From the NCBI GenBank assembly GCA_965203905.1, contig CBDBDQ010000005.1, positions 1,824,001 to 1,888,000 of the forward strand: a stretch of DNA of 64,000 nt, written 5' to 3'. Shown piece after piece: positions 8,649-32,623 of the stretch. The first letter of the stretch is position 1, and every line of letters begins with the position of its first letter. Position numbers and translations under genes: made by a program. Origin of the DNA: Spirochaetia bacterium (lineage in GTDB: Bacteria; Spirochaetota; Spirochaetia; SZUA-6; Bin103). The notes beneath the pieces were generated by a model. The model did no database searches and was not told the origin of the DNA. It saw nothing but the letters and a program-made list of their open reading frames with translations.

Positions 8649-8722
8649 TGGAGGCGACGGGAATCGAACCCACGACCTCGTGAATGCCATTCACGCGCTC
8701 TAGCCAACTGAGCTACGCCCCC
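8649..8722 (-). tRNA. tRNA-Ala(GGC)
   Basis: Cloverleaf GGGGGCGTAGCTCAG...TGGCAT...GGTTCGATTCC...CGCCTCCA; G3:U70; CCA not encoded. Confidence 0.97.
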
Positions 8723-8787: not shown

Positions 8788-10917
8788 CCAGGACCATCGG
8801 ACCATCCCTGCTGAACGACGTCTGAATCCCGTGTGCGGCCGAGCGGCCGTGATGGCCCCCGGCGCCTACCAGATCGCCGCACACCCGCAACGCCGGTTTC
8901 CGCCGCTGCATTGCTGCCACGCCGGCGCCGCGGTGCAGGATTCGCAGGATTCTGCGAAAAAGTGCCAAAAAAACGCGCTGAGCACTTGACGGGTTTGGCG
9001 CTGCTCGTGACGGCCTCCTGCCGCACGTTCCGGCCCCTCCGACCCTTCGAACATCCCGCCACGCCCTCCAGGACCGTCAGCACCCGCCAGCGCCGGCCTA
9101 AGCCCTTCCCGGTGCCCGTCCCGGGACTTGCAGAAACCGGGCATTTCTCAACCATGATTATATTTACGCCATGACTGCCGCGACCGCTACCGGCTTCTCC
9201 TCCTCGCTTTCCGGGCTCCCCGACCAGGTGCTGCTGGCGCATACCAGGTCCCTCGTCCTGCACGAGCAGGCGCTGCAGCTCGCCGTCCTCGACCACCTGC
9301 GCGAGATCCATGCGCGTCACCTCCACCTGCGCCTCGGGTTCTCCAGCCTGTTCGACTACGCCGTCCGCGAGCTGGGCTACAGCGAGGGTGCCGCTTGGCG
9401 TCGCATAAAGGCGATGCGCCTGTGCTCCGAGACCGCCGGGACACGCGAGCGGCTGCAGGACGGCTCACTCTCCCTGAGCGCGGCGGCGCAGTTGCAGAAC
9501 ACCTTCGATCTCCTGCAGCGCACGGCCACCGCCGCCGCGGACCCCGGCTCGGCACCCGCGGCAGCGGAGCTGCTGCCGGGCGCCACGGGGACGCCGCCCG
9601 AGGCGGGGGCTTCCGCGGCCGAGGTCGCGGCGCCACCGAGCCCGGTGCAGGCGCGACCGGTGCCGGCGCTGGACGCGGCGCAGCGGCAGGAGCTGGTGGC
9701 GCAGGCGAGCGGCAAGAGCACCCGCGAGGTGAAGCAGTTGTTGGCCGGGGTGGCTCCCGAGCTGGCGCGGCCGGCCGATCGCATGCGGGCGCTGGGCGAC
9801 GGCCGCTGGGAGCTGAAGGCAGTGATCGACTCTGCCTGCCAGCGCGGGATCGAGCAGCTACGGGCACTGCTGTCGCACGTGGACCCGCACCTGACGCTGG
9901 GGCAGCTCGTGGAGCGGCTGGTGCAGGACGGCCTGAAGCGCTACGACCCGGGGCGACCGCCGCGCGGGCGCAGAGGTGGGCGCCGGAAGGCAAGCTCGGG
10001 CCAGGCGCCGGAGCCGACGGCGCAGCAAGGGCCGGCAGGCGGGGCGGCTTCGCTGGCGAAGTGGGGCGTGCAAGAGCAACCCGGAGTGCCACCGACGCCG
10101 GCGGGCACGAGCGCCGGTGGCAGCACCCCGGCGCCGGCAGCGCTGTCCGCAGCGGAACCCGCGCGCGGGATTTGCGACGCCGGCACCTCCGTGGTGGCAG
10201 CGCTGTCCGCGCCGCCGTCGGGGCGCGAGACTTGCGGCGGCATCATCTCGGTGAGTGCCAAGCCAGCGGCGGCGGCGCCCGGCACCGCTGTTTCGGCAGC
10301 GAAGTCGGTGGCAGATAGTGGGTCCCACGCTACCGTACCGACGCCACGGCCGACGCCGCCGGCAGACCAGAGCATGCCGCCCGCGCGGGCAGCGGCGGAT
10401 CGCGGTCGCCACGCTCCTTCGCCAGCGAAGCGGACAGGGGCCGCGCAGCGGGCAGGGGCGGCGCAGCGGGCAGGAGCGGCGCCGCCGGCAGGAGCGCAGC
10501 TCGATGGCCGTTCGCGCACGCAGGCGGCGCCAGCCGGCCCGTCCGCAGGCAGCGCGCAGCCGGCCCACCGGCCGCGTCGATCCCGGTACATTCCGGCACC
10601 AGTGCGGCGCGAGGTGTGGCGCCGCGACGGCGGCTGCTGCAGTTACGTCGATCCGCGCAGCGGGCGGCGCTGTGGGTCCCGCTTTCTCCTGGAGTTCGAC
10701 CACATCGTTCCCTACGCGCTCGGCGGCGGCGCCGAGCCGGGGAACTTGAGGCTGCATTGTGCTGCTCACCACCGCTTCCGGCATCGGGAGCACGGATCGC
10801 CGCCAGACGGGGCCACGTGATCGGCGCGCGCCGGGGTGCGAGTTGCGCCGTTGGGCGTCGGTCCGAGGGCAGCGGGAGCAACGATTTGCAGCCGGCTTGT
10901 CGCGTAGCGGGGGATAG
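8788..10917 (+). mobile_element. HNH-gene repeat element, copy 1
   Basis: Homologous to 26902-29034 in inverted orientation across the non-coding left arm, ORF and ~95 nt right arm; right terminus appears clipped. Confidence 0.75.
9171..10820 (+). CDS. HNH endonuclease domain protein (helical N-domain, Ala/Pro-rich linker, C-terminal HNH)
   Basis: LGFSSLFDYAVRELGYSEGAAWRRIKAMRL; RYIPAPVRREVWRRDGGCC...C...EFDHIVPYALGG...NLRLHCAAHH. Confidence 0.9.
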   Translation: MTAATATGFSSSLSGLPDQVLLAHTRSLVLHEQALQLAVLDHLREIHARHLHLRLGFSSLFDYAVRELGYSEGAAWRRIKAMRLCSETAGTRERLQDGSLSLSAAAQLQNTFDLLQRTATAAADPGSAPAAAELLPGATGTPPEAGASAAEVAAPPSPVQARPVPALDAAQRQELVAQASGKSTREVKQLLAGVAPELARPADRMRALGDGRWELKAVIDSACQRGIEQLRALLSHVDPHLTLGQLVERLVQDGLKRYDPGRPPRGRRGGRRKASSGQAPEPTAQQGPAGGAASLAKWGVQEQPGVPPTPAGTSAGGSTPAPAALSAAEPARGICDAGTSVVAALSAPPSGRETCGGIISVSAKPAAAAPGTAVSAAKSVADSGSHATVPTPRPTPPADQSMPPARAAADRGRHAPSPAKRTGAAQRAGAAQRAGAAPPAGAQLDGRSRTQAAPAGPSAGSAQPAHRPRRSRYIPAPVRREVWRRDGGCCSYVDPRSGRRCGSRFLLEFDHIVPYALGGGAEPGNLRLHCAAHHRFRHREHGSPPDGAT

Positions 10918-26876: not shown

Positions 26877-26901
26877 AGCCGCCTCGCACCAAGGGTTGCT
26901 G

Positions 26902-29034
26902 CCAGGATTATCCCACGTTGCGCGACAAGCCGGCTGCAAGTCGTTGCTCCCGCTGCCATCGGACCGACACCCGAACGCCCAACTCGCCCCGCGGCGAGCG
27001 CCGATCACGTGGCCCCGTCTGGCGGCGGCGCGTACTCCCGATGCCGGAAGCGGTGGTGGGCTCGACAGCGCAGGCGCAAGTTGCCGGGCTCCGCACCGCC
27101 GCCGAGGGCGAAGGGAACGATGTGGTCGAGCTCCAGCAGGAAGCGGGAGCCGCAGCGCCGCCCGCTGTGCGGATCGACGTAACTGCAGCGGCCGCCGTCG
27201 CGGCGCCACACCTCGCGCCGCACTGCTGCCGGAATGTACCGGGATCGACGCGCCCGGTGGGCCGGCTGCGGGCTGCCACGGGACGGGCCGGCTGCCGCCG
27301 CCTGCGGCCGCGAATGGCCATCGAGCTGCACCGCTCCTGCCCGCTTCGCCGCTCCGGCCCGCTTCGCTGGCGAAGGAGCGCTGCGACCACGATCCGCCGC
27401 TGCCGTCGCGGTCGGCATGGTCTGGTCTACCGGCGGCGTCGGTACGGAGGCGCGGGACCCGCAACCAGCCACCAACTTCGCCGCCGAAGCAGCGGTGCCG
27501 GGCGCCGCCGCCGCTGGCTTGGCACTCACCGGGGTGATGCTGCCGCCAGTCTCGCGCCCCGACGGCGGCGCGGGCAGCGCTGCCACCGCCGAGGTGCCGG
27601 CGCCGCCAATCCCGCGCGCGGGCTCCTCTGCGGACAGCGCTGCCGGCGCCGGGGTGCCGGCGCTCGTGCCCTCCGGCGTCGGCGGCACTCCGGGTTGCTC
27701 TTGCGCGTCCCGCTTCGCCGGCGAAGTCGCCTCGCCCGCCGGCCCTTCCTGCGCCTTCGGCTCCGGCGCCTGGCCCGCGCTTGTCTCCCGGCGCCCACCT
27801 CTGCGCCCGCGCGGCGACCGCCCCGGGTCGTAGCGCTGCAGGCCATCCTGGACCAGCCGCTCCACGAGCTGCCCCAGCGTCAGGTGCGGGTCCACGTGCG
27901 ACAGCAGTGCCCGTAGCTGCTCGATCCCACCCTGACAGGCAGAGTCGATCGCCACCTTCAGCTCCCAGCGCTCGTCGCCCAGCGCCCGCATGCGATCGGC
28001 CGGGCGCGCCAGCTCGGGAGCCACCCCGGCCAACAACTGCTTCACCTCGCGGGTGCTCTTGCCGCTCGCCTGCGCCACCAGCTCCTGCCGCTGCGCCGCG
28101 TCCAGCGCCGGCACCGGTCGCGCGGGCGCCGCTGCCGCGGTCCCCGAAGCCCCCGCCTCCGGCGTCGTCCCCGTGCCGCCCGGCAGCAGCTCCGGTGCCG
28201 CGGGTGCCTCGCCGGGGTCCGCGGCGGCGGTCGCGGTGCGCTGCAGGAGATCGAAGGTGTTCTGCAACTGCGCTGCGGCGCTCAGGGTGAGCGAGCCGTC
28301 CTGCAGCCGCTCGCGTGTTCCGTCGGTATCGGAGCACAGGCGCATCGCCTTTATGCGGCGCCAGGCGGCACCCTCGCTGTAGCCCAACTCGCGCACCGCG
28401 TAGTCGAACAGGCTGGAGAACCCGAGGCGCAGGTGGAGGTGGCGGGCGTGGATCTCGCGCAGGTGGTCGAGGACGGCGAGCTGCAGCGCCTGCTCGTGCA
28501 GGACGAGGGACCTGGTATGCGCCAGCAGCACCTGGTCGGGGAGCCAGGAGAGAGAGGAGGAGAAGCCGGGAGCGGTCGCGGTAGCCACAGTAGCCATGGC
28601 GTAAATATAATCATGGTTGAGAAATGACCGGTTTCGGCAAGTCCCGGGACGGGCACCGGGAAGGGCTCAGGCCGGCGCTGGCGGGGTGCTGACGGTCCTG
28701 GAGGGCGTGGCGGGATGTTCGAAGGGTCGGAGGGGCCGGAAGGTGCGGCAGGAGGCCGTCATAAGCAGCGCCAAACCCGTCAAGTGCTCAGCGAACTTTT
28801 TTTGGCACTTTTTCGCAGAATCCGGCGAATCCTGCACTGCGGCGCTGGCGTGGCAGCAATGCATCGGCGGAGACCGGCGTTGCGCATGGGCGGCGACACG
28901 CCCATTCCTGGACAGATGGTACAGCGAACGATCCACGCACCTTGAAGGCGGCGGCGGCCTGGCAGGCGTGGGGCCATCACCGCAGCTCGGCCACGCACGG
29001 GATGCAGACGTCCGTCAGCATGGGATGGCCCTGG
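26902..29034 (-). mobile_element. HNH-gene repeat element, copy 2, with imperfect TIRs and 7-bp TSD
   Basis: GTTGCTG at 26895-26901 and 29035-29041; ends read inward CCAGGATTATCCCACGTTG and CCAGGGCCATCCCATGCTG (14/19 match). Confidence 0.75.
27005..28597 (-). CDS. HNH endonuclease domain protein (paralog of 9171-10820)
   Basis: Near-identical N-domain and HNH domain (ELDHIVPFALGG...NLRLRCRAHH). Confidence 0.9.
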   Translation of the reverse strand: MATVATATAPGFSSSLSWLPDQVLLAHTRSLVLHEQALQLAVLDHLREIHARHLHLRLGFSSLFDYAVRELGYSEGAAWRRIKAMRLCSDTDGTRERLQDGSLTLSAAAQLQNTFDLLQRTATAAADPGEAPAAPELLPGGTGTTPEAGASGTAAAAPARPVPALDAAQRQELVAQASGKSTREVKQLLAGVAPELARPADRMRALGDERWELKVAIDSACQGGIEQLRALLSHVDPHLTLGQLVERLVQDGLQRYDPGRSPRGRRGGRRETSAGQAPEPKAQEGPAGEATSPAKRDAQEQPGVPPTPEGTSAGTPAPAALSAEEPARGIGGAGTSAVAALPAPPSGRETGGSITPVSAKPAAAAPGTAASAAKLVAGCGSRASVPTPPVDQTMPTATAAADRGRSAPSPAKRAGAAKRAGAVQLDGHSRPQAAAAGPSRGSPQPAHRARRSRYIPAAVRREVWRRDGGRCSYVDPHSGRRCGSRFLLELDHIVPFALGGGAEPGNLRLRCRAHHRFRHREYAPPPDGAT

Positions 29035-29104
29035 GTTGCTGGCTGTGCTCGTTGTCCAAATGTGATGTTCTTGTACGATACTTGAGAAACTGGTGGTTGC
29101 GTTC

Positions 29105-29515
29105 ATGCAGGACACGCTCTCAGTTTCTGAGGTGCGCGAGAAGCTCGCCGAGGTCACCGGTCTGCTCGACGCTCTCGATGCGCTCGCAGACTATCGCGCG
29201 AACGGCGGCGTCGATCTGGAGGCCCTCAAGAAGAACTCGGTCTTTGATTCACCGAATCGTCGAGGTTGCCTTGTTCTCGGTGACGGCGACGTCGTACAGG
29301 TGGTCCACTGCTTGCTGTGCAGTGATCATGCGTGGCTCACGCCGTGGCAGGCAGGCCGTTGTGCGTGCCCACCTCGCCCGTGGACACTTGGGCCGTGCTC
29401 AGGAGACCGCCGCTCTCGCGGCGCAGGCGGTCGAGTCCGACTGCGAAGTACACGGGGTCGACCTCGATCCCGATGCTGTTTCTGCCGCAGGCGGCGGCAG
29501 CCACCTGGGAAGTAG
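29105..29515 (+). CDS. Hypothetical protein overlapping the methyltransferase 3' end
   Basis: Helical N-terminus MQDTLSVSEVREKLAEVTGLLDAL, CxxC; upstream TTGTCC...TACGAT promoter-like sequence. Confidence 0.35.
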   Translation: MQDTLSVSEVREKLAEVTGLLDALDALADYRANGGVDLEALKKNSVFDSPNRRGCLVLGDGDVVQVVHCLLCSDHAWLTPWQAGRCACPPRPWTLGPCSGDRRSRGAGGRVRLRSTRGRPRSRCCFCRRRRQPPGK

Positions 29516-30332
29516 CGGTGCCGTTGAACGGATCGAGCACCGTGTCCCCGACGAAGCTGAACATGCGGATCAGTCGGTCCGCCAGGGCGACCGGAAAGGG
29601 AGCCGGGTGGTCGCGGGTCGACTCACCCGGGATGTCGGCCCAGATCTGTCGAAAGAACCGCTTGAACGAGGACTCCGACAGCAGGCTGAGTATCCGTGCA
29701 GCAAGGTCGGGTTTGCGGTAGCCGCCTCCCTTCCGCTGCATCAGGATGAATTCGATGTCGTTCTTGATTACGGCGTTGGGCTCGTACGGCTTGCCCAGGA
29801 ATCCACCGGCGCCGCGCTTCATCTCGTAGGTCGCGTTGGCGATCTTGCTCCATATGATCGGCGCCAGGTTGTCGAAGCCGATCTCCCGGCAGTGCTCCTG
29901 GATCGAAGCGTGCAACGGCACCACCGTGTGCTTGCCGCGGTTCCTGCGCCGCGCCAGACAAACATCGCCGACAACGCAAATGAGCCGTCCCCCCGGCACC
30001 AGCGCCGCGTGGCACATGCGCCACACCTGGTCCAGCTGGCTGAAAAACTCCTCATAGTCCTCGATCCACCCCAACTGGCCGTCGGCCCGGCGGTACTCCT
30101 TGAGGATCCAGTACGGTGGGGACGTGACCACGAGGTGAACCGAGCCGGCGGGCAGCGCCGCCAGCCGCGCGTCTCCGAGCAGCAACCGATGTCGGGTGGG
30201 GACTTCGACCACGGCTGCCTCAATGGATGCTATCGCTGACCGGCTCTTCGCCAGCCGTGGCAGATCACGCGACGGGTCCGCAAGATCGCGGAGTGGCTCA
30301 GGGACGAGCGTACCGAGCACGGACTGCCTCAC
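29337..30332 (-). CDS. Site-specific DNA methyltransferase (N4/N6 family, beta motif order)
   Basis: VTSPPYW catalytic motif precedes HPAPFP and VLDPFNGTAT SAM-binding motif. Confidence 0.92.
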   Translation of the reverse strand: MRQSVLGTLVPEPLRDLADPSRDLPRLAKSRSAIASIEAAVVEVPTRHRLLLGDARLAALPAGSVHLVVTSPPYWILKEYRRADGQLGWIEDYEEFFSQLDQVWRMCHAALVPGGRLICVVGDVCLARRRNRGKHTVVPLHASIQEHCREIGFDNLAPIIWSKIANATYEMKRGAGGFLGKPYEPNAVIKNDIEFILMQRKGGGYRKPDLAARILSLLSESSFKRFFRQIWADIPGESTRDHPAPFPVALADRLIRMFSFVGDTVLDPFNGTATSQVAAAACGRNSIGIEVDPVYFAVGLDRLRRESGGLLSTAQVSTGEVGTHNGLPATA

Positions 30333-30430
30333 GTGCACAAGTATAGCCCGCGAGCACTGGTCGTGACACGATGAACTATAAGCGTTGAGTTAGAACGTCG
30401 GCCAACCGTGCCACTGAATTCACTGGTGCG

Positions 30431-30849
30431 TCATAGGTGCCGTTTCGAAGAGAGTGCTTTCAGTATTGGGGTATTGCGTTCCACCAGTACGGAGGCTGAG
30501 TGCAGTATGTCAGATTCATTCGTTGAGGAGTGTTTCTTATACGATTGCACCACGTTCACGGGCCACGTTACAAACCTGTCCGCTCGACGAACCGGCGAAG
30601 ACCGTGAACTCAGCTTGTCGCCAAGGAGCATCGGTTCGGAACGGTAGTTGCAAAGAAGTGAAACTCTCCGCATGGGTATGTGTTGCTTGTTGTTGTGTGA
30701 CTCATAGAGCAGTGATGCGGAGCACAGTTCGTGATACTTCTCGGCAACACGGCTGCGACGCTGTGCTGTGAAGTATTTCGTCAACTCGCCGAAGGGTCGG
30801 TGTCCACTCACTGGATCAGTCCCTCCTCCCGCAACTCGTCAAGATACTC
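30431..30849 (-). pseudogene. Degenerate toxin tail plus XRE antitoxin remnant
   Basis: EYLDELREEGLIQ* (30808-30849) coupled to MSGHRPFGELTKYFTAQRRSRV..., which then loses any HTH similarity. Confidence 0.5.
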
Positions 30850-31282
30850 ACCGAATAATGTCGTTTTCGTCGCAATCCTGGATTGCCTTAGGTATCACTC
30901 GTGCGAACAAACGAAGCGCACGCACGATTAGGAAGGAGGTTACTCCCTCTCCAAATGGAAGATAGTAGTCCACCATCAATATGTCTGGTGCTTCCAACGG
31001 CACTGAGAAACGACAAAAAATAACATCGTCATTCATCTTGTTGACGAACGCGTGCTTGGATTCCAGCGACGCGGTGTTCTCGAACCGATATACGGCTGTG
31101 TATCTCAGTAGTTTATTGTCCGCGTTGATGCTGACAAATACCGTTGGATCATCGGTCTCAACACGTACATCACCGTCGTCGTCCAGGGACGCGCTAAAGA
31201 ACGCGCGACGGAAAAGGTCTCGGATGGTATCCGGTGTAACTTCGTTCTCGGCGATGATCTCTAAAGTTTCTGTGGACTTCAT
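30848..31282 (-). CDS. YbjN-like (T3SS-chaperone-fold) protein
   Basis: LDDDGDVRVE...FVNKMNDDVIFCRF...DYYLPFGEGVT; RBS GAAGGA. Confidence 0.7.
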   Translation of the reverse strand: MKSTETLEIIAENEVTPDTIRDLFRRAFFSASLDDDGDVRVETDDPTVFVSINADNKLLRYTAVYRFENTASLESKHAFVNKMNDDVIFCRFSVPLEAPDILMVDYYLPFGEGVTSFLIVRALRLFARVIPKAIQDCDENDIIR

Positions 31283-31408
31283 GGATCCTTCGTCATGTTA
31301 CCCTAAGGAAGGTTGGTCGCGTTGTCAACCGTCGCGCTGGACGACTGTTGGTAGTGTATGCGGCAGCGCGCGAGTAGATTGGAACACAACGGAGGCTGAG
31401 CGTCATCT

Positions 31409-32623
31409 CTACAGCGTGAACTGCTGGCGGACTTTGCCGGTGCCGACGAATTGGGAGAGCAGGCGATAGTCCTGGCGTTCGAACCGGATCCGGCCCGCAA
31501 CCGTCGCGGGGTGGACCTGCAGGTGGTGGGCGAGACTCATGACGCCCAACGGTGTCGGATGGTTCCGCACCGGGCTGGTTTCCCATTCGGCGCTCGGGAT
31601 GAGCGCCTCGGCGGCCCATTCGTCGGCTTCTGCTTCGCGCTGGTCTTCCACTCCTGGTTGCGGCTTGCGGAGCGTCAGGTCATCCACGAACGCGGTGCCG
31701 GTGTCGTGGTCCAAGTGACGGCCCACGTGCGCCAGCTCGTGGAGCAGGCAGAACCAGAAGCTGTCGATTCGGTCGTTGCGCAGGGTGAGCGCGACTACCG
31801 GCCGGCCGTCGCCGAGGCGCAGCGCGGCTCCGTCGAGATAGGTCCGTGGCAGATGCCGCTCGATGATCAGCGGGATTCCGTGTTGTGCGAGAAACTCCTG
31901 GGCGCCGCGGGGGCCGTTCTCCGACCAGCTCAATCGCACGACCTGCCTCAGGAACTCCAACGTGACGGTACCGCGTTCGTATGCGGCGTTCGGTGGGGTG
32001 CCGTTGGCCGTCGCCAGCACCTGCCAGCACCATGCATGCAGGGCATATGGGTCGGTCTTGGCGTTGGTACGCAGGTGGTCATTCTTGCGGTACAGGGCGG
32101 CGCGCGCCACCTGCCAGCCGCCGGCGCGGTCGATCAGATCGCGTACCAGGCCCTCCGCCTGCTCCGCCAGGTCGGGGACAGACGGAATCCAGTGGCGCTT
32201 GGCCATCTCCTTGAGCGGGAAGCGGCGCCATTGAATGTCGTCGACGGGCTGGTCGGCCATGGTACTCGGCGCTCGGAGCAGCACCTCCGCCGGAATGCCG
32301 AGGTGCTGATGCAGCGCCCGCGCCATCGGCATGGTGATCGAGCGTTTGCCGGAGAGCACCTCGGAAACCTTGGCGCGGCTGCCGATGAAGCGGACCAGAT
32401 CGCGCGGCGCCAGACCCTGCTGCTCCATCCGGAACTTGATCGCCGCGATGGGGCTGGGATATCCCATCGGCTCATGCTTGCTCTCGTACAGCTCGACCAG
32501 GTCGACCAGGACGTCCAGCTCTTCCCCTTCCGGGCTTCCCACCTCGGCATCCATCAACTCGTCGACCCGGGCCAGCGCGGCTGCGTAGCCGGACTCCGTC
32601 CGGATTGGCTTGACCTCGGCCAT
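31409..32623 (-). CDS. higA: HigA-type HTH antitoxin fused to ImmA/IrrE (DUF955) metallopeptidase
   Basis: IRTESGYAAAL...SPIAAIKFRMEQQGL...SEVLSGKR; FWFCLLHELAH (HExxH), EAEADEWA. Confidence 0.88.
   Translation of the reverse strand: MAEVKPIRTESGYAAALARVDELMDAEVGSPEGEELDVLVDLVELYESKHEPMGYPSPIAAIKFRMEQQGLAPRDLVRFIGSRAKVSEVLSGKRSITMPMARALHQHLGIPAEVLLRAPSTMADQPVDDIQWRRFPLKEMAKRHWIPSVPDLAEQAEGLVRDLIDRAGGWQVARAALYRKNDHLRTNAKTDPYALHAWCWQVLATANGTPPNAAYERGTVTLEFLRQVVRLSWSENGPRGAQEFLAQHGIPLIIERHLPRTYLDGAALRLGDGRPVVALTLRNDRIDSFWFCLLHELAHVGRHLDHDTGTAFVDDLTLRKPQPGVEDQREAEADEWAAEALIPSAEWETSPVRNHPTPLGVMSLAHHLQVHPATVAGRIRFERQDYRLLSQFVGTGKVRQQFTL

What the first reader, a model, noticed from the sequence alone, without database searches (positions are those of the whole stretch)
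26895..29041. Transposon-like element with TIRs and TSD whose only gene is an HNH nuclease (two copies in 20 kb)
Seen: 8788-10917 (+) and 26902-29034 (-) are homologous across a long non-coding left arm, a 530-549 aa ORF and a ~95 nt right arm, in unrelated gene contexts. Copy 2 is flanked by GTTGCTG on both sides. Its ends form a 14/19 inverted repeat (CCAGGATTATCCCACGTTG vs CCAGGGCCATCCCATGCTG) in which all mismatches are transitions. The protein has a conserved helical N-domain (LGFSSLFDYAVRELGYSEGAAWRRI), a disordered linker and a Cys-containing HNH domain, and I see no DDE, HUH, Tyr/Ser recombinase or RT motif. Known: TIR plus TSD is normally the signature of DDE transposases, whereas HNH domains serve homing endonucleases and RNA-guided IscB/HEARO systems. 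Inference: an uncharacterised mobile element family, either mobilised by this protein or non-autonomous and carrying it as cargo.
Basis: partly seen in the sequence, partly recalled or inferred. Interest (0 to 1): 0.85.

Follow-up and report, generated by a model that had tools for sequence, protein, structure and literature searches.

The report
HNH nuclease riding an ISAs1-type shell
This is a real, highly repeated mobile element, but its inverted ends and target duplications belong to an ordinary ISAs1-family insertion sequence whose transposase gene has been replaced by an HNH nuclease gene that looks oddly well preserved.

Summary
The 2.13-kb unit is one of 69 related loci in this 8.0-Mb genome, 38 of them near-full. 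It has sharp boundaries, conserved imperfect TIRs (core CAGGRCNATCCCAYGCT) and mostly 9-bp TSDs. The orthologous site is empty in a congeneric genome.

The HNH protein is very probably not the transposase. The same TIR core and the same 9-bp TSD bound several other elements in sister genomes:
- 2.1-2.2-kb autonomous insertion sequences encoding a 605-606-aa ISAs1-family DDE transposase
- 141-bp MITEs
- elements carrying a classical DUF222-HNH gene
- elements carrying Rpn/Transposase_31 nuclease genes

This genome keeps only decayed remnants of the transposase. In another congener the same HNH family sits inside ISKra4-type ends. The element is therefore a non-autonomous, MIC-like ISAs1 derivative that carries a DNA-binding HNH nuclease as cargo.

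One point is unexplained. The cargo is under clear purifying selection (dN/dS 0.11-0.24), and 34 of 38 near-full copies keep the frame open. That is not expected of a passive passenger.

I rate it a new variant of a known kind, of moderate interest.

The parts
26894..26902 (.). Target-site duplication, copy next to the right end (GGTTGCTGC on the + strand)
   Evidence: Matches 29034-29042 at 8 of 9. The 9-bp length was set from all genomic copies.
26903..26919 (-). Right terminal inverted repeat (IRR type; read inward CAGGATTATCCCACGTT; family consensus CAGGACTATCCCACGCT)
   Evidence: Ends aligned across copies. The same core is found in ISAs1-type IS, MITEs and other cargo elements.
26903..27004 (-). 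Right arm, non-coding, about 102 nt between the stop codon and the end
   Evidence: Nucleotide diversity 0.194 with no codon periodicity. Beyond the TIR it is unrelated to the autonomous IS or the MITE.
27005..28597 (-). Cargo ORF, 530 aa: helical DNA-binding N-domain, ribbon-helix-helix-like module, about 190-aa disordered linker, C-terminal HNH nuclease
   Evidence: dN/dS 0.11-0.24 in the folded parts and 1.16 in the linker.
28220..28540 (-). N-domain (aa 20-126), all-helical, pLDDT about 97. Best structural matches are ParB/KorB/SopB-type HTH DNA-binding domains.
   Evidence: KorB 8qa8_A, Z 6.7, rmsd 3.2 over 99 residues. This is below the tool's caution level of Z 8, so it is a lead only.
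27830..28105 (-). Middle domain (aa 165-256): helices followed by a strand-helix-helix resembling ribbon-helix-helix modules
   Evidence: TraM, NikR and MazE-type RHH, Z 4.7-5.4 over 42-52 residues.
27023..27235 (-). HNH nuclease domain (aa 455-525). D491-H492, N506, H514/H515 and the Cys ligands C471, C482, C511 are invariant or nearly invariant among homologues.
   Evidence: GVE2 HNH Z 7.1, McrA Z 7.0, IscB HNH Z 6.9.
28598..28791 (-). Constrained non-coding part of the left arm, also conserved in the TIR-less B subfamily. It includes a TTGACG-type box and, at 28604-28609, a TATATT box 6 nt before the ATG (a possible leaderless promoter).
   Evidence: Diversity 0.100 against 0.186 in the outer arm, with no 3-nt periodicity. 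Shared with the B subfamily. The promoter reading is inference from the sequence.
28792..29033 (-). Outer left arm, evolving about neutrally apart from the TIR
   Evidence: Diversity 0.186. Copy-private indels in the whole left arm (q30-444, which includes this stretch) run at 2.54 per kb per copy.
29017..29033 (-). Left terminal inverted repeat (IRL type; CAGGGCCATCCCATGCT)
   Evidence: Compare the IRL of the autonomous IS of G001/G020 (CAGGGCGATCCCATGCT), which differs at one position of the 17-nt core.
29034..29042 (.). Target-site duplication, copy next to the left end (GGTTGCTGG)
   Evidence: The empty orthologous site is in G003.
8789..10917 (+). Second copy in the window, with an intact 549-aa ORF at 9171-10820, decayed termini and no visible TSD. 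It lies 66 nt from a tRNA gene at 8649-8722 (-).

Best explanation
The element is a non-autonomous derivative of an ISAs1-family insertion sequence. In ISfinder terms it is a mobile insertion cassette (MIC): the ends of the IS are kept and the transposase gene is replaced by another gene.

Proposed mechanism:
1. (Inferred from shared ends.) An ISAs1-type DDE transposase supplied in trans by autonomous copies binds the 17-nt TIR core CAGGRCNATCCCAYGCT. It moves the unit and makes 9-bp staggered target cuts, which leave the 9-bp TSD.
2. (Shown.) This genome now holds only decayed pieces of that transposase, and no two copies are more than 96.8% identical. The roughly 40 copies are therefore products of past activity.
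3. (Predicted from structure and conservation.) The cargo gene encodes helical and ribbon-helix-helix-like DNA-binding modules tethered by a roughly 190-aa disordered linker to an HNH nuclease with intact catalytic residues. It is probably transcribed from its own promoter as a leaderless mRNA.
4. (Shown, but unexplained.) The cargo has evolved under purifying selection, so it is probably not a passive passenger. My best guess is a selfish, cis-acting nuclease function that favours its carrier.
For: Mobility:
- 69 loci, 38 near-full, with sharp boundaries.
- 9-bp TSDs well above the shuffled control.
- An empty orthologous site in congener G003. The flanks are also adjacent without the element in G001, G005 and G006.

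The ends belong to an ISAs1-family IS:
- The pattern CAGGRCNATCCCAYGCT occurs in 14 of 92 genomes of the order. Twelve of these are in the window's own family (G000 plus 11 of 23). The reversed control pattern gave 1 hit in all.
- It bounds 2114-bp (G020) and 2164-bp (G001) elements encoding a 605-606-aa protein that scores NF033564 ISAs1 transposase 144.9 bits (cut-off 70) and PF13808 48.6 bits.
- Perfect 9-bp TSDs were found in 2 of 3 G001 copies and 3 of 3 G010 copies.
- A described ISAs1 member, ISArsp11, has ends CAGGGC... and a 10-bp DR (PMC6305408, Table 3 passage).

The same ends bound other contents:
- 141-bp MITEs in G008 and G014. Of 7 examined, 3 have 9/9 TSDs, 1 has 8/9, 1 has an 8-bp TSD, 1 has 7/9 and 1 is ambiguous.
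- Elements carrying a classical DUF222-HNH gene, PF02720 76.4 bits (G004, G006).
- Elements carrying Rpn/Transposase_31 genes (G000 C5:5515052-5516341, G018).

Transposase in G000:
- No intact cognate transposase was found. There are only fragments at C5:4758225-4758634 and a 36-aa C-terminal piece (75% identity) at C5:4213316-4213423. That piece lies beside a solo end of the IRR type seen in G001's IS.

The HNH gene is separable from these ends:
- The 72-78% identical B subfamily in G000 lacks them.
- In G010 the same protein family lies within ends shared with a 1.52-kb ISKra4-family IS, NF033572 214.6 bits against a cut-off of 205.
- The predicted structure shows no RNase-H-like fold.
Against: - Trans-mobilisation was not observed; it rests on shared ends.
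- G000, with the most copies (37 exact TIR-core matches), has no intact partner transposase. G008, with 59 matches, shows none either, though that assembly is 88% complete and fragmented.
- The cargo behaves as if it matters to the element. dN/dS is 0.11 (N-domain), 0.24 (middle) and 0.23 (HNH) against 1.16 in the linker.
- 34 of 38 near-full copies keep one open frame from the N-terminal motif to the HNH motif.
- Copy-private indels run at 0.50 per kb per copy in the ORF (20 of 30 in-frame) against 2.54 in the left arm (7 of 40 multiples of three). A passenger moved purely in trans should decay.
- Outside the roughly 20-35 terminal nucleotides, the arms share no similarity with the autonomous IS or the MITEs, so the origin of the arms is unknown.
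- In G010 only 2 of 20 HNH loci show both ISKra4-type ends by a strict pattern. Fifteen of 20 show at least one end and 5 show none.
Confidence: 0.8

Rival explanations
1. The HNH protein is itself the transposase: a new, non-DDE class of TIR/TSD transposon in which the DNA-binding domains recognise the ends and the HNH domain cuts donor and target.
For: - It is the only conserved ORF in the element.
- It is under purifying selection, with the frame intact in 34 of 38 copies.
- No intact DDE partner exists in this genome.
- The DNA-binding plus tethered-nuclease architecture would suit end recognition.
Against: - The same ends and TSD length belong to autonomous ISAs1-family IS, to MITEs, and to elements with unrelated PD-(D/E)XK cargo.
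- Close paralogues of the HNH gene lack these ends (the B subfamily) or sit in ISKra4-type ends (G010).
- Remnants of the ISAs1 transposase are present in G000.
- From established knowledge, no HNH enzyme is known to perform strand transfer.
Confidence: 0.05
2. The HNH gene is a free-standing homing-endonuclease-like gene. It multiplies mainly by cutting related IS shells and being copied into them by repair (gene conversion). On this reading the TSDs were made earlier by the DDE enzyme and the HNH cassette spread afterwards.
For: - The centre of the element is more uniform than its arms: third-codon-position diversity is 0.09-0.12 in the N and middle domains against 0.19 in the arms.
- HNH- and PD-(D/E)XK-type nuclease genes have repeatedly ended up inside IS shells of two IS families.
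- Selection on the nuclease would be explained.
- Only one cassette-less shell (a 249-bp derivative) remains in G000.
Against: - The arms outside the TIR are homologous in all 38 copies and unlike any IS or MITE seen in relatives. The whole unit therefore most simply multiplied as one piece.
- No recognisable target sequence or conversion tract was demonstrated.
- HNH-domain third positions are as diverse as the arms (0.189).
Confidence: 0.1
3. It is an ordinary dispersed paralogue family or a product of segmental duplication, not a mobile element.
For: The copies are old (median 89.6% identity, none above 96.8%), and some share flanks. For example C5:1233033 and C5:1240584 have the same right flank.
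Against: - Conservation falls to background within a few bases of conserved TIRs.
- 9-bp TSDs of different sequence occur at different sites.
- The orthologous site is empty in a congener.
- MITEs and autonomous IS have the same ends.
Confidence: 0.01

Closest known systems
Mobile insertion cassettes (MICs, e.g. MIC231 of Bacillus cereus) and other non-autonomous IS derivatives
   Same: IS-type inverted repeats and TSD, no transposase gene, and one passenger gene in between. Mobility depends on a transposase supplied by the cognate IS. [quoted passage not shown] The MIC231 details are recalled, not read.
   Different: - The parent IS is of the ISAs1 family.
- The passenger is a DNA-binding HNH nuclease.
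- The cassette reached about 40 copies while the parent IS decayed.
- The passenger is under purifying selection in most copies.
- Sister cassettes with the same ends carry other nucleases.
ISAs1-family insertion sequences
   Same: Ends beginning CAGGG(C), TSD of 8-10 bp and imperfect TIRs of about 17-25 bp. ISArsp11 has IRs CAGGGCTGATGC... and a 10-bp DR (PMC6305408, Table 3 passage). Autonomous relatives with the same TIR core were found in G001, G004, G019 and G020; G010's IS has variant ends, CAAGGCGATCCCATGCTA and CAGGAAAATCCCATGCTA.
   Different: The window element has no ISAs1 transposase. The autonomous relatives here also carry an N-terminal DruA-like domain, PF14236 69.7 bits.
DUF222-HNH proteins (REP13E12-type repeats of mycobacteria and other Actinobacteria)
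   Same: A helical N-terminal region plus a C-terminal HNH domain, present in many copies per genome. They are listed among repeat/MGE-like sequences in the DIVE paper (PMC10589994, passage). Some homologues of the window protein touch PF02720: 1 of 10 tested is over the cut-off at 27.2 bits and 2 are below. The nearest named Atlas cluster is 'DUF222 domain-containing protein', score 0.94.
   Different: - The window protein itself gives no PF02720 hit.
- Profile comparison with a classical DUF222-HNH protein (G004) aligns only the HNH domain.
- I saw no description of TIR/TSD shells for REP13E12 in the passages read. The original 1999 paper was not available to me.
IscB / HEARO (OMEGA) nucleases of IS200/IS605
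   Same: An accessory, non-transposase nuclease with an HNH domain, carried by a transposon. There is weak HNH-level similarity: NF040563 17.1 bits and structural Z 6.9 to OrufIscB.
   Different: - No RuvC domain. The score is far below the cut-off of 175.
- No HEARO or other Rfam hit at the gathering threshold or at E<=10.
- The carrier is a DDE-type TIR/TSD element, not a Y1/HUH element.
HNH homing endonucleases with tethered DNA-binding modules (I-HmuI-like; recalled)
   Same: A sequence-reading DNA-binding part joined to an HNH nuclease.
   Different: There is no intron, intein or fixed homing site. Insertion sites differ and carry TSDs.

Membership tests
Mobile insertion cassette / non-autonomous IS derivative | Terminal inverted repeats identical or near-identical to those of an autonomous IS | tested here: met
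   The 17-nt core CAGGRCNATCCCAYGCT is shared with ISAs1-type IS of G001 and G020.
Mobile insertion cassette / non-autonomous IS derivative | No transposase gene inside; one or more passenger genes instead | tested here: met
   The only conserved ORF is the HNH protein, with no DDE, ISAs1 or other transposase family hit.
Mobile insertion cassette / non-autonomous IS derivative | Target-site duplication of the length made by the parent IS | tested here: met
   9 bp in the cassette and 9 bp in the autonomous IS and MITEs.
Mobile insertion cassette / non-autonomous IS derivative | Mobilised in trans by the parent transposase | not testable with these tools
   Inferred only. It needs a transposition assay.
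ISAs1-family insertion sequence (autonomous) | Encodes an ISAs1-type DDE transposase (NF033564 / PF13808 + PF01609) | tested here: not met
   No such hit in the element. In the whole genome there are only fragments, at most 28.3 bits.
ISAs1-family insertion sequence (autonomous) | Ends CAGGG... and TSD of 8-10 bp | tested here: met
   The reference example ISArsp11 is in PMC6305408.
HNH endonuclease (PF01844) | Pfam score over the gathering cut-off, and a beta-beta-alpha-metal core with conserved His/Asn/His and Cys ligands | tested here: met
   Copy 1 scores 21.6 bits (cut-off 21.4) and copy 2 scores 20.4, just under. Homologues score 25-37 bits. H492, N506, C471, C482, C511 and H514 are at least 90% conserved in 80 sequences. 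Structural matches reach Z 6.2-7.1.
DUF222 (PF02720) | Pfam score over the cut-off of 24.4 bits in the N-terminal region | tested here: inconclusive
   The window proteins give no hit at E<=1. Of 10 homologues, 1 is over the cut-off (27.2) and 2 are below (17.9, 18.7). hhalign to a classical member aligns only the HNH domain. The Atlas neighbour cluster is named DUF222.
IscB / OMEGA RNA-guided nuclease | Split RuvC domain with inserted HNH, plus an adjacent omega/HEARO RNA | tested here: not met
   NF040563 scores 17.1 bits against 175, over the HNH only. There is no RuvC-like fold in the model and no Rfam match.
ParB/KorB-type HTH DNA-binding domain | Fold match of the N-domain to solved ParB/KorB/SopB DNA-binding domains | tested here: inconclusive
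   Z 6.7 (KorB, 99 residues aligned, rmsd 3.2), Z 6.2 (1r71) and Z 5.3 (Spo0J). All are below the tool's caution level for helical folds.

The most novel reading that the evidence does not exclude
The nuclease is not a passenger but an IS hyperparasite or helper. On this reading, DNA-binding HNH nucleases, and in sister elements Rpn-type PD-(D/E)XK nucleases, repeatedly replace the transposase inside IS shells of at least two unrelated IS families (ISAs1, ISKra4). They then act in cis on their own carrier, for example as a TnsA-like second-strand nuclease or by break-induced copying. That would explain why 34 of 38 near-full cassettes stay intact under purifying selection and outnumber, and outlive, the autonomous IS. 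It could also explain the long-unexplained multi-copy DUF222-HNH (REP13E12-type) repeats.
Probability: 0.2. Interest if true: 0.8.

Novelty: new variant of a known kind. Interest (0 to 1): 0.5.

Why it matters
The finding resolves an apparent paradox, a TIR/TSD transposon without a DDE enzyme, in an ordinary way: the ends are borrowed from an ISAs1-family IS.

It also exposes a pattern I did not find described. In high-GC Spirochaetia genomes, nuclease genes (two HNH types and Rpn-like PD-(D/E)XK types) repeatedly occupy the shells of resident insertion sequences. They reach dozens of copies and stay under purifying selection.

If the nuclease helps its carrier, this would be a protein-guided counterpart of the accessory nucleases (TnpB/IscB) of IS200/IS605. 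It would also offer a testable origin for multi-copy DUF222-HNH genes.

For annotation, such loci should be labelled as non-autonomous ISAs1 derivatives, not as a new transposon class.

Tried and rejected
- **RNA hypotheses for the long left arm.** Rfam at the gathering threshold found only two tRNAs in the window. At E<=10 on the element it gave only two chance-level hits. The outer arm evolves about neutrally. I did not build a covariance model.
- **A hidden coding region in the arms.** Diversity shows no 3-nt periodicity there.
- **A DDE element with the same ends inside G000.** blastn-short with both ends, a mismatch-tolerant scan and an exact 10-mer scan found only the following outside the HNH family: the Rpn element, its two truncated copies and a few solo ends. 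About 20 of the 28 outside hits to the 10-mer are at the level I estimated for chance.
- **Other Rpn-like genes in G000.** There are 17 Transposase_31 matches. The 7 I inspected show no convincing flanking inverted repeats.
- **The roughly 2.6-kb IS that interrupts two HNH copies.** It has different ends, so it is not the helper.
- **Structure search.** Foldseek against PDB returned only HNH-level matches, with E at least 0.098.
- **Sequence search of PDB.** Only HNH matches.
- **Literature.** Searches for 'DUF222'+'HNH' (5 papers), 'REP13E12' (22 papers) and HNH + 'terminal inverted repeats' + 'target site duplication' + 'insertion sequence' (14 papers) listed no description of an HNH-only TIR/TSD cassette of an IS. 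I read listings and abstracts, and passages of PMC10589994, PMC6305408, PMC6542083 and 10.1101/2021.08.16.456562. Supplementary files were not consulted. Subscription-only papers, for example Gordon et al. 1999 and Siguier et al. 2015, were not available.
- **Sequencing runs.** Only assembled contigs were available.
  - They confirm both insertion junctions in X1 and X2 with no differences.
  - Low-depth contigs of related organisms join the flanks without the element: 26868, 26875 and 26882 joined to 29161 or 29097.
  - No precise excision product was seen, so nothing can be said about current activity.
  - RNA-library contigs (X24) overlap parts of the ORF, mostly at 90-95% identity. This shows neither transcription of this copy nor its absence.
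- **Boundaries of the B subfamily and of the G011 and G022 copies.** These were not resolved.
- **Complex prediction.** Not used, because no protein-protein claim is made.


Full report
**1. What is there**

The window lies in a 7.99-Mb, roughly 70% G+C genome of 5 contigs.

Copy 2 (window 26902-29034, minus strand) and copy 1 (about 8789-10917, plus strand) align over their whole length. Homology stops abruptly on both sides. Each copy holds one long ORF, of 530 and 549 aa.

BLAST of copy 2 against the whole genome gives 96 HSPs that merge into 69 loci:
- 38 near-full copies of an 'A' family
- 11 longer copies of a 'B' subfamily at about 72-78% identity
- fragments

In an alignment of the 38 copies, agreement with the majority base is 0.73-0.99 inside the element and 0.24 in the flanks.

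**2. Ends and target duplications**

Projecting all copies onto copy 2 shows two conserved ends:
- the left end, CAGGGCCATCCCATGCTGAACGACG...
- the right end, ...GCGTGGGATAGTCCTG

The first and last bases outside CAGG...CCTG vary between copies.

With these termini the flanking direct repeat is 9 bp.
- Nine of 23 copies with both termini recognisable match at 8 or 9 of 9 positions. Eleven match at 7 or more. For shuffled left/right pairings the mean is 2.96 matches, with 0.4% reaching 8 and 1.4% reaching 7.
- Allowing 8-10 bp and one mismatch, 12 of 23 qualify.
- For copy 2 the repeats are GGTTGCTGC and GGTTGCTGG.
- The duplicated sequences differ from site to site.

A congeneric genome (G003) has the two flanks of copy 2 only 7 nt apart, with a single diverged copy of the target region. 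G001, G005 and G006 also have the flanking genes adjacent without the element.

The unit is therefore a transposon insertion, not a paralogue in a fixed position.

**3. The protein**

Family searches give little:
- Pfam sees only a marginal HNH domain.
- NCBIfam gives only a 17-bit match to the HNH part of IscB.
- PDB sequence searches hit only HNH domains.

An exhaustive HMMER search finds 16,083 representative proteins at E<=0.001 and 794 at E<=1e-30. Many of these are 290-350 aa versions without the long linkers. One of ten such homologues passes the DUF222 cut-off and two are just below it.

An AlphaFold2 model built from 80 sequences has pLDDT above 90 for three folded parts and below 50 for a linker of about 190 residues. 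VIA-align gives these matches:

| Model residues | Best matches | Score |
|---|---|---|
| 443-525 | HNH nucleases | Z 6-7 |
| 34-194 | ParB/KorB/SopB DNA-binding domains | Z up to 6.7 |
| 208-260 | ribbon-helix-helix modules | Z about 5 |

The last two are below the tool's own caution level, so they are leads only. No RNase-H-like fold is present.

The HNH His/Asn/His and Cys ligands are at least 90% conserved.

**4. Whose ends are these?**

Inside G000, the only other complete element with the same 17-nt core is a 1290-bp unit at C5:5515052-5516341. It encodes a Transposase_31 (Rpn/YhgA-like, PD-(D/E)XK) protein.

I then searched the pattern CAGGRCNATCCCAYGCT in 92 genomes of the same order.
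- It matched 14 genomes, 12 of them in the window's own family.
- The reversed control pattern gave one hit in all.

Paired hits define four kinds of element, all with 9-bp TSDs:

| Kind | Size | Genomes | Content |
|---|---|---|---|
| MITEs | 141 bp | G008, G014 | none |
| HNH cassette | about 2.2 kb | G004, G006 | 655-aa classical DUF222-HNH protein (PF02720 76.4 bits) |
| Rpn cassette | about 1.4 kb | G004, G018 | Rpn-like proteins |
| Autonomous IS | 2114 bp | G020 | 605-aa protein with a DruA-like N-domain and an ISAs1-family transposase (NF033564 144.9 bits, cut-off 70; PF13808 48.6 bits) |

Open frames of 604-606 aa for this transposase occur in G020 (2), G019 (1), G001 (4), G004 (1) and G010 (3, plus one of 600 aa).

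The G001 copies are 2164 bp, with the ends CAGGGCGATCCCATGCTGAGG... and ...GAAGCATGGGATCGCCTTG. Two of the three examined have perfect 9-bp TSDs. The G010 copies have slightly different ends, and 3 of 3 have perfect 9-bp TSDs.

A published ISAs1 member, ISArsp11, likewise has ends CAGGGC... and a 10-bp duplication (PMC6305408, passage).

Similarity between the HNH element, the IS, the MITE and the other cassettes is confined to the terminal 20-35 nt.

**5. The partner in this genome**

G000 has no ISAs1-type transposase above the family cut-off. Protein searches find only three things:
- fragments at C5:4758225-4758634
- a 36-residue C-terminal piece (75% identity) at C5:4213316-4213423, next to a solo end matching the IRR type of G001's IS
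- a second such solo end at C5:6024971

No two HNH copies exceed 96.8% identity, and the median is 89.6%.

The simplest history is amplification in trans by a now-decayed ISAs1-family IS.

**6. The HNH gene is separable from these ends**

The B subfamily shares the constrained promoter-proximal segment and the ORF, but not the TIRs. It sits within another, larger repeat.

All 80 best related loci in the species collection come from records titled as Spirochaetia or Spirochaetales MAGs, often with many loci per genome.

In G010 the copies end in GGGCGCAYTTCCAAWWTGT-type inverted repeats. These ends are shared with a 1.52-kb IS encoding an ISKra4-family transposase (NF033572 214.6 bits, cut-off 205). 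Three of three copies of that IS have flanking direct repeats of about 8-10 bp; one (L233) is an exact 9-bp pair. By a strict pattern, however, only 2 of 20 HNH loci there show both ends. Fifteen of 20 show at least one and 5 show none.

The same nuclease family thus rides in the shells of two unrelated IS families.

**7. What remains odd**

A passenger moved in trans should decay, but this one has not.
- Codon-position diversity is 0.046/0.023/0.117 in the N-domain and flat in the linker.
- dN/dS is 0.11, 0.24 and 0.23 in the three folded parts and 1.16 in the linker.
- 34 of 38 copies keep the frame from the N-terminal motif to the HNH motif.
- Copy-private indels are five times rarer in the ORF than in the left arm and are mostly in-frame: 20 of 30, against 7 of 40.

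Alignment error in the arms may inflate this contrast, but the dN/dS result does not depend on it.

This suggests that the nuclease contributes to the persistence or spread of its own carrier. How it does so is not shown.

**8. Verdict**

The idea of an HNH transposase is unlikely (about 0.05).

In kind this is a known phenomenon. Three things are new, as far as my searches reach:
- the cargo type
- its recurrence across IS families
- its conservation

Noticed in passing
G000:C5:5515052-5516341 (outside the window; locus L031 553-1842): A 1290-bp element with the same TIR core at both ends (16 of 16 defined positions each). It encodes a 342-aa Transposase_31/Rpn-like protein (PF04754 58.4 bits), and its flanks match at 6 of 9. 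Two truncated copies lie at C5:3261700 and C5:6957503. The genome has 17 Transposase_31 matches in all.
   Followed up: partly
G000:C5:4213316-4213730, C5:6024971, C5:4758225-4758634: Decayed remnants of the autonomous ISAs1-type IS: a 36-aa transposase C-terminus (75% identity) beside a solo IRR-type end, a second solo end, and two short DDE fragments.
   Followed up: partly
G000:C5:5072022-5075161: A full HNH copy, then about 775 bp of other DNA, then a 249-bp internally deleted derivative (about q8-142 joined to q2002-2140). The outer ends carry a perfect 9-bp repeat, TCACATCAA, as if the three had moved together as a composite.
   Followed up: partly
G000:C5:4668268-4670862 and C5:7577416-7580009: Two HNH copies are interrupted near q405-455 by a roughly 2.6-kb IS with different ends (GTAAGTATTCGGTCTAC...). 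At the first site, the one checked, it is flanked by an 8-bp TSD. It encodes a 337-aa ORF 43% identical to the DruA-like N-domain of the ISAs1-type transposase. Six such ORFs, and five 858-aa-class ones with one in-frame TGA, are in the genome.
   Followed up: partly
G000: C3:99793-100416, C5:1893433-1894038, C5:4817213-4817857 (left parts); C3:28090-29559, C5:1960757-1962267, C5:4748138-4749553 (right parts): Three left fragments end at q642-644 and three right fragments start at q628. This is a recurrent breakpoint with about 15 nt of overlap inside the N-domain coding region. The cause is unknown (an insertion hot spot or rearrangements).
   Followed up: no
G000, 11 loci, e.g. C5:4836072-4837595: The B subfamily of the HNH gene (72-78% identity) lacks the CAGG-type TIRs. 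Six copies share identical flanks on both sides, so they sit inside a larger, undefined repeat.
   Followed up: partly
G010 (loci L231-L234, L154-L220): A 1.52-kb ISKra4-family IS (at least 8 copies by paired pattern hits), a 527-bp MITE-like pair, and about 1.79-kb HNH elements all share the ends GGGCGCAYTTCCAAWWTGT.
   Followed up: partly
G020:C4:1716698-1720935 (locus L119): Two identical 2114-bp ISAs1-type IS copies lie in tandem, 10 bp apart, with a perfect 9-bp repeat (GAGGCGCTC) only at the outer ends.
   Followed up: no
window 8649-8722 (-): A tRNA gene (Rfam 63.5 bits) lies 66 nt from the left end of copy 1. No other copy was checked for tRNA proximity.
   Followed up: no
window 28582-28611 (+): The only sigma-70-like match in the element (TAGCCA-18-TATAAT, 10 of 12) lies antisense over the ORF start and points out through the left arm. 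The same AT-rich patch gives a sense-strand TATATT 6 nt before the ATG.
   Followed up: no
window 29100-32000: Copy 2 is inserted about 60 nt upstream of a short ORF whose start (MQDTLSVSEVREKLAEV...) resembles the Phd/YefM-type antitoxin-like ORF seen intact at the empty site of G001. Next comes a 333-aa ORF with an SPPY-type DNA methyltransferase motif (29337-30338, -). G+C drops to 57-63% here. These names come from reading the translations; no family search was run.
   Followed up: no
window 28820-28845 (-), and the same place in copy 1: A tandem short repeat (GGATTC twice, 9 nt apart; CAGGATTC twice in copy 1) lies at the edge of the constrained part of the left arm. It is a candidate protein-binding site.
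   Followed up: no
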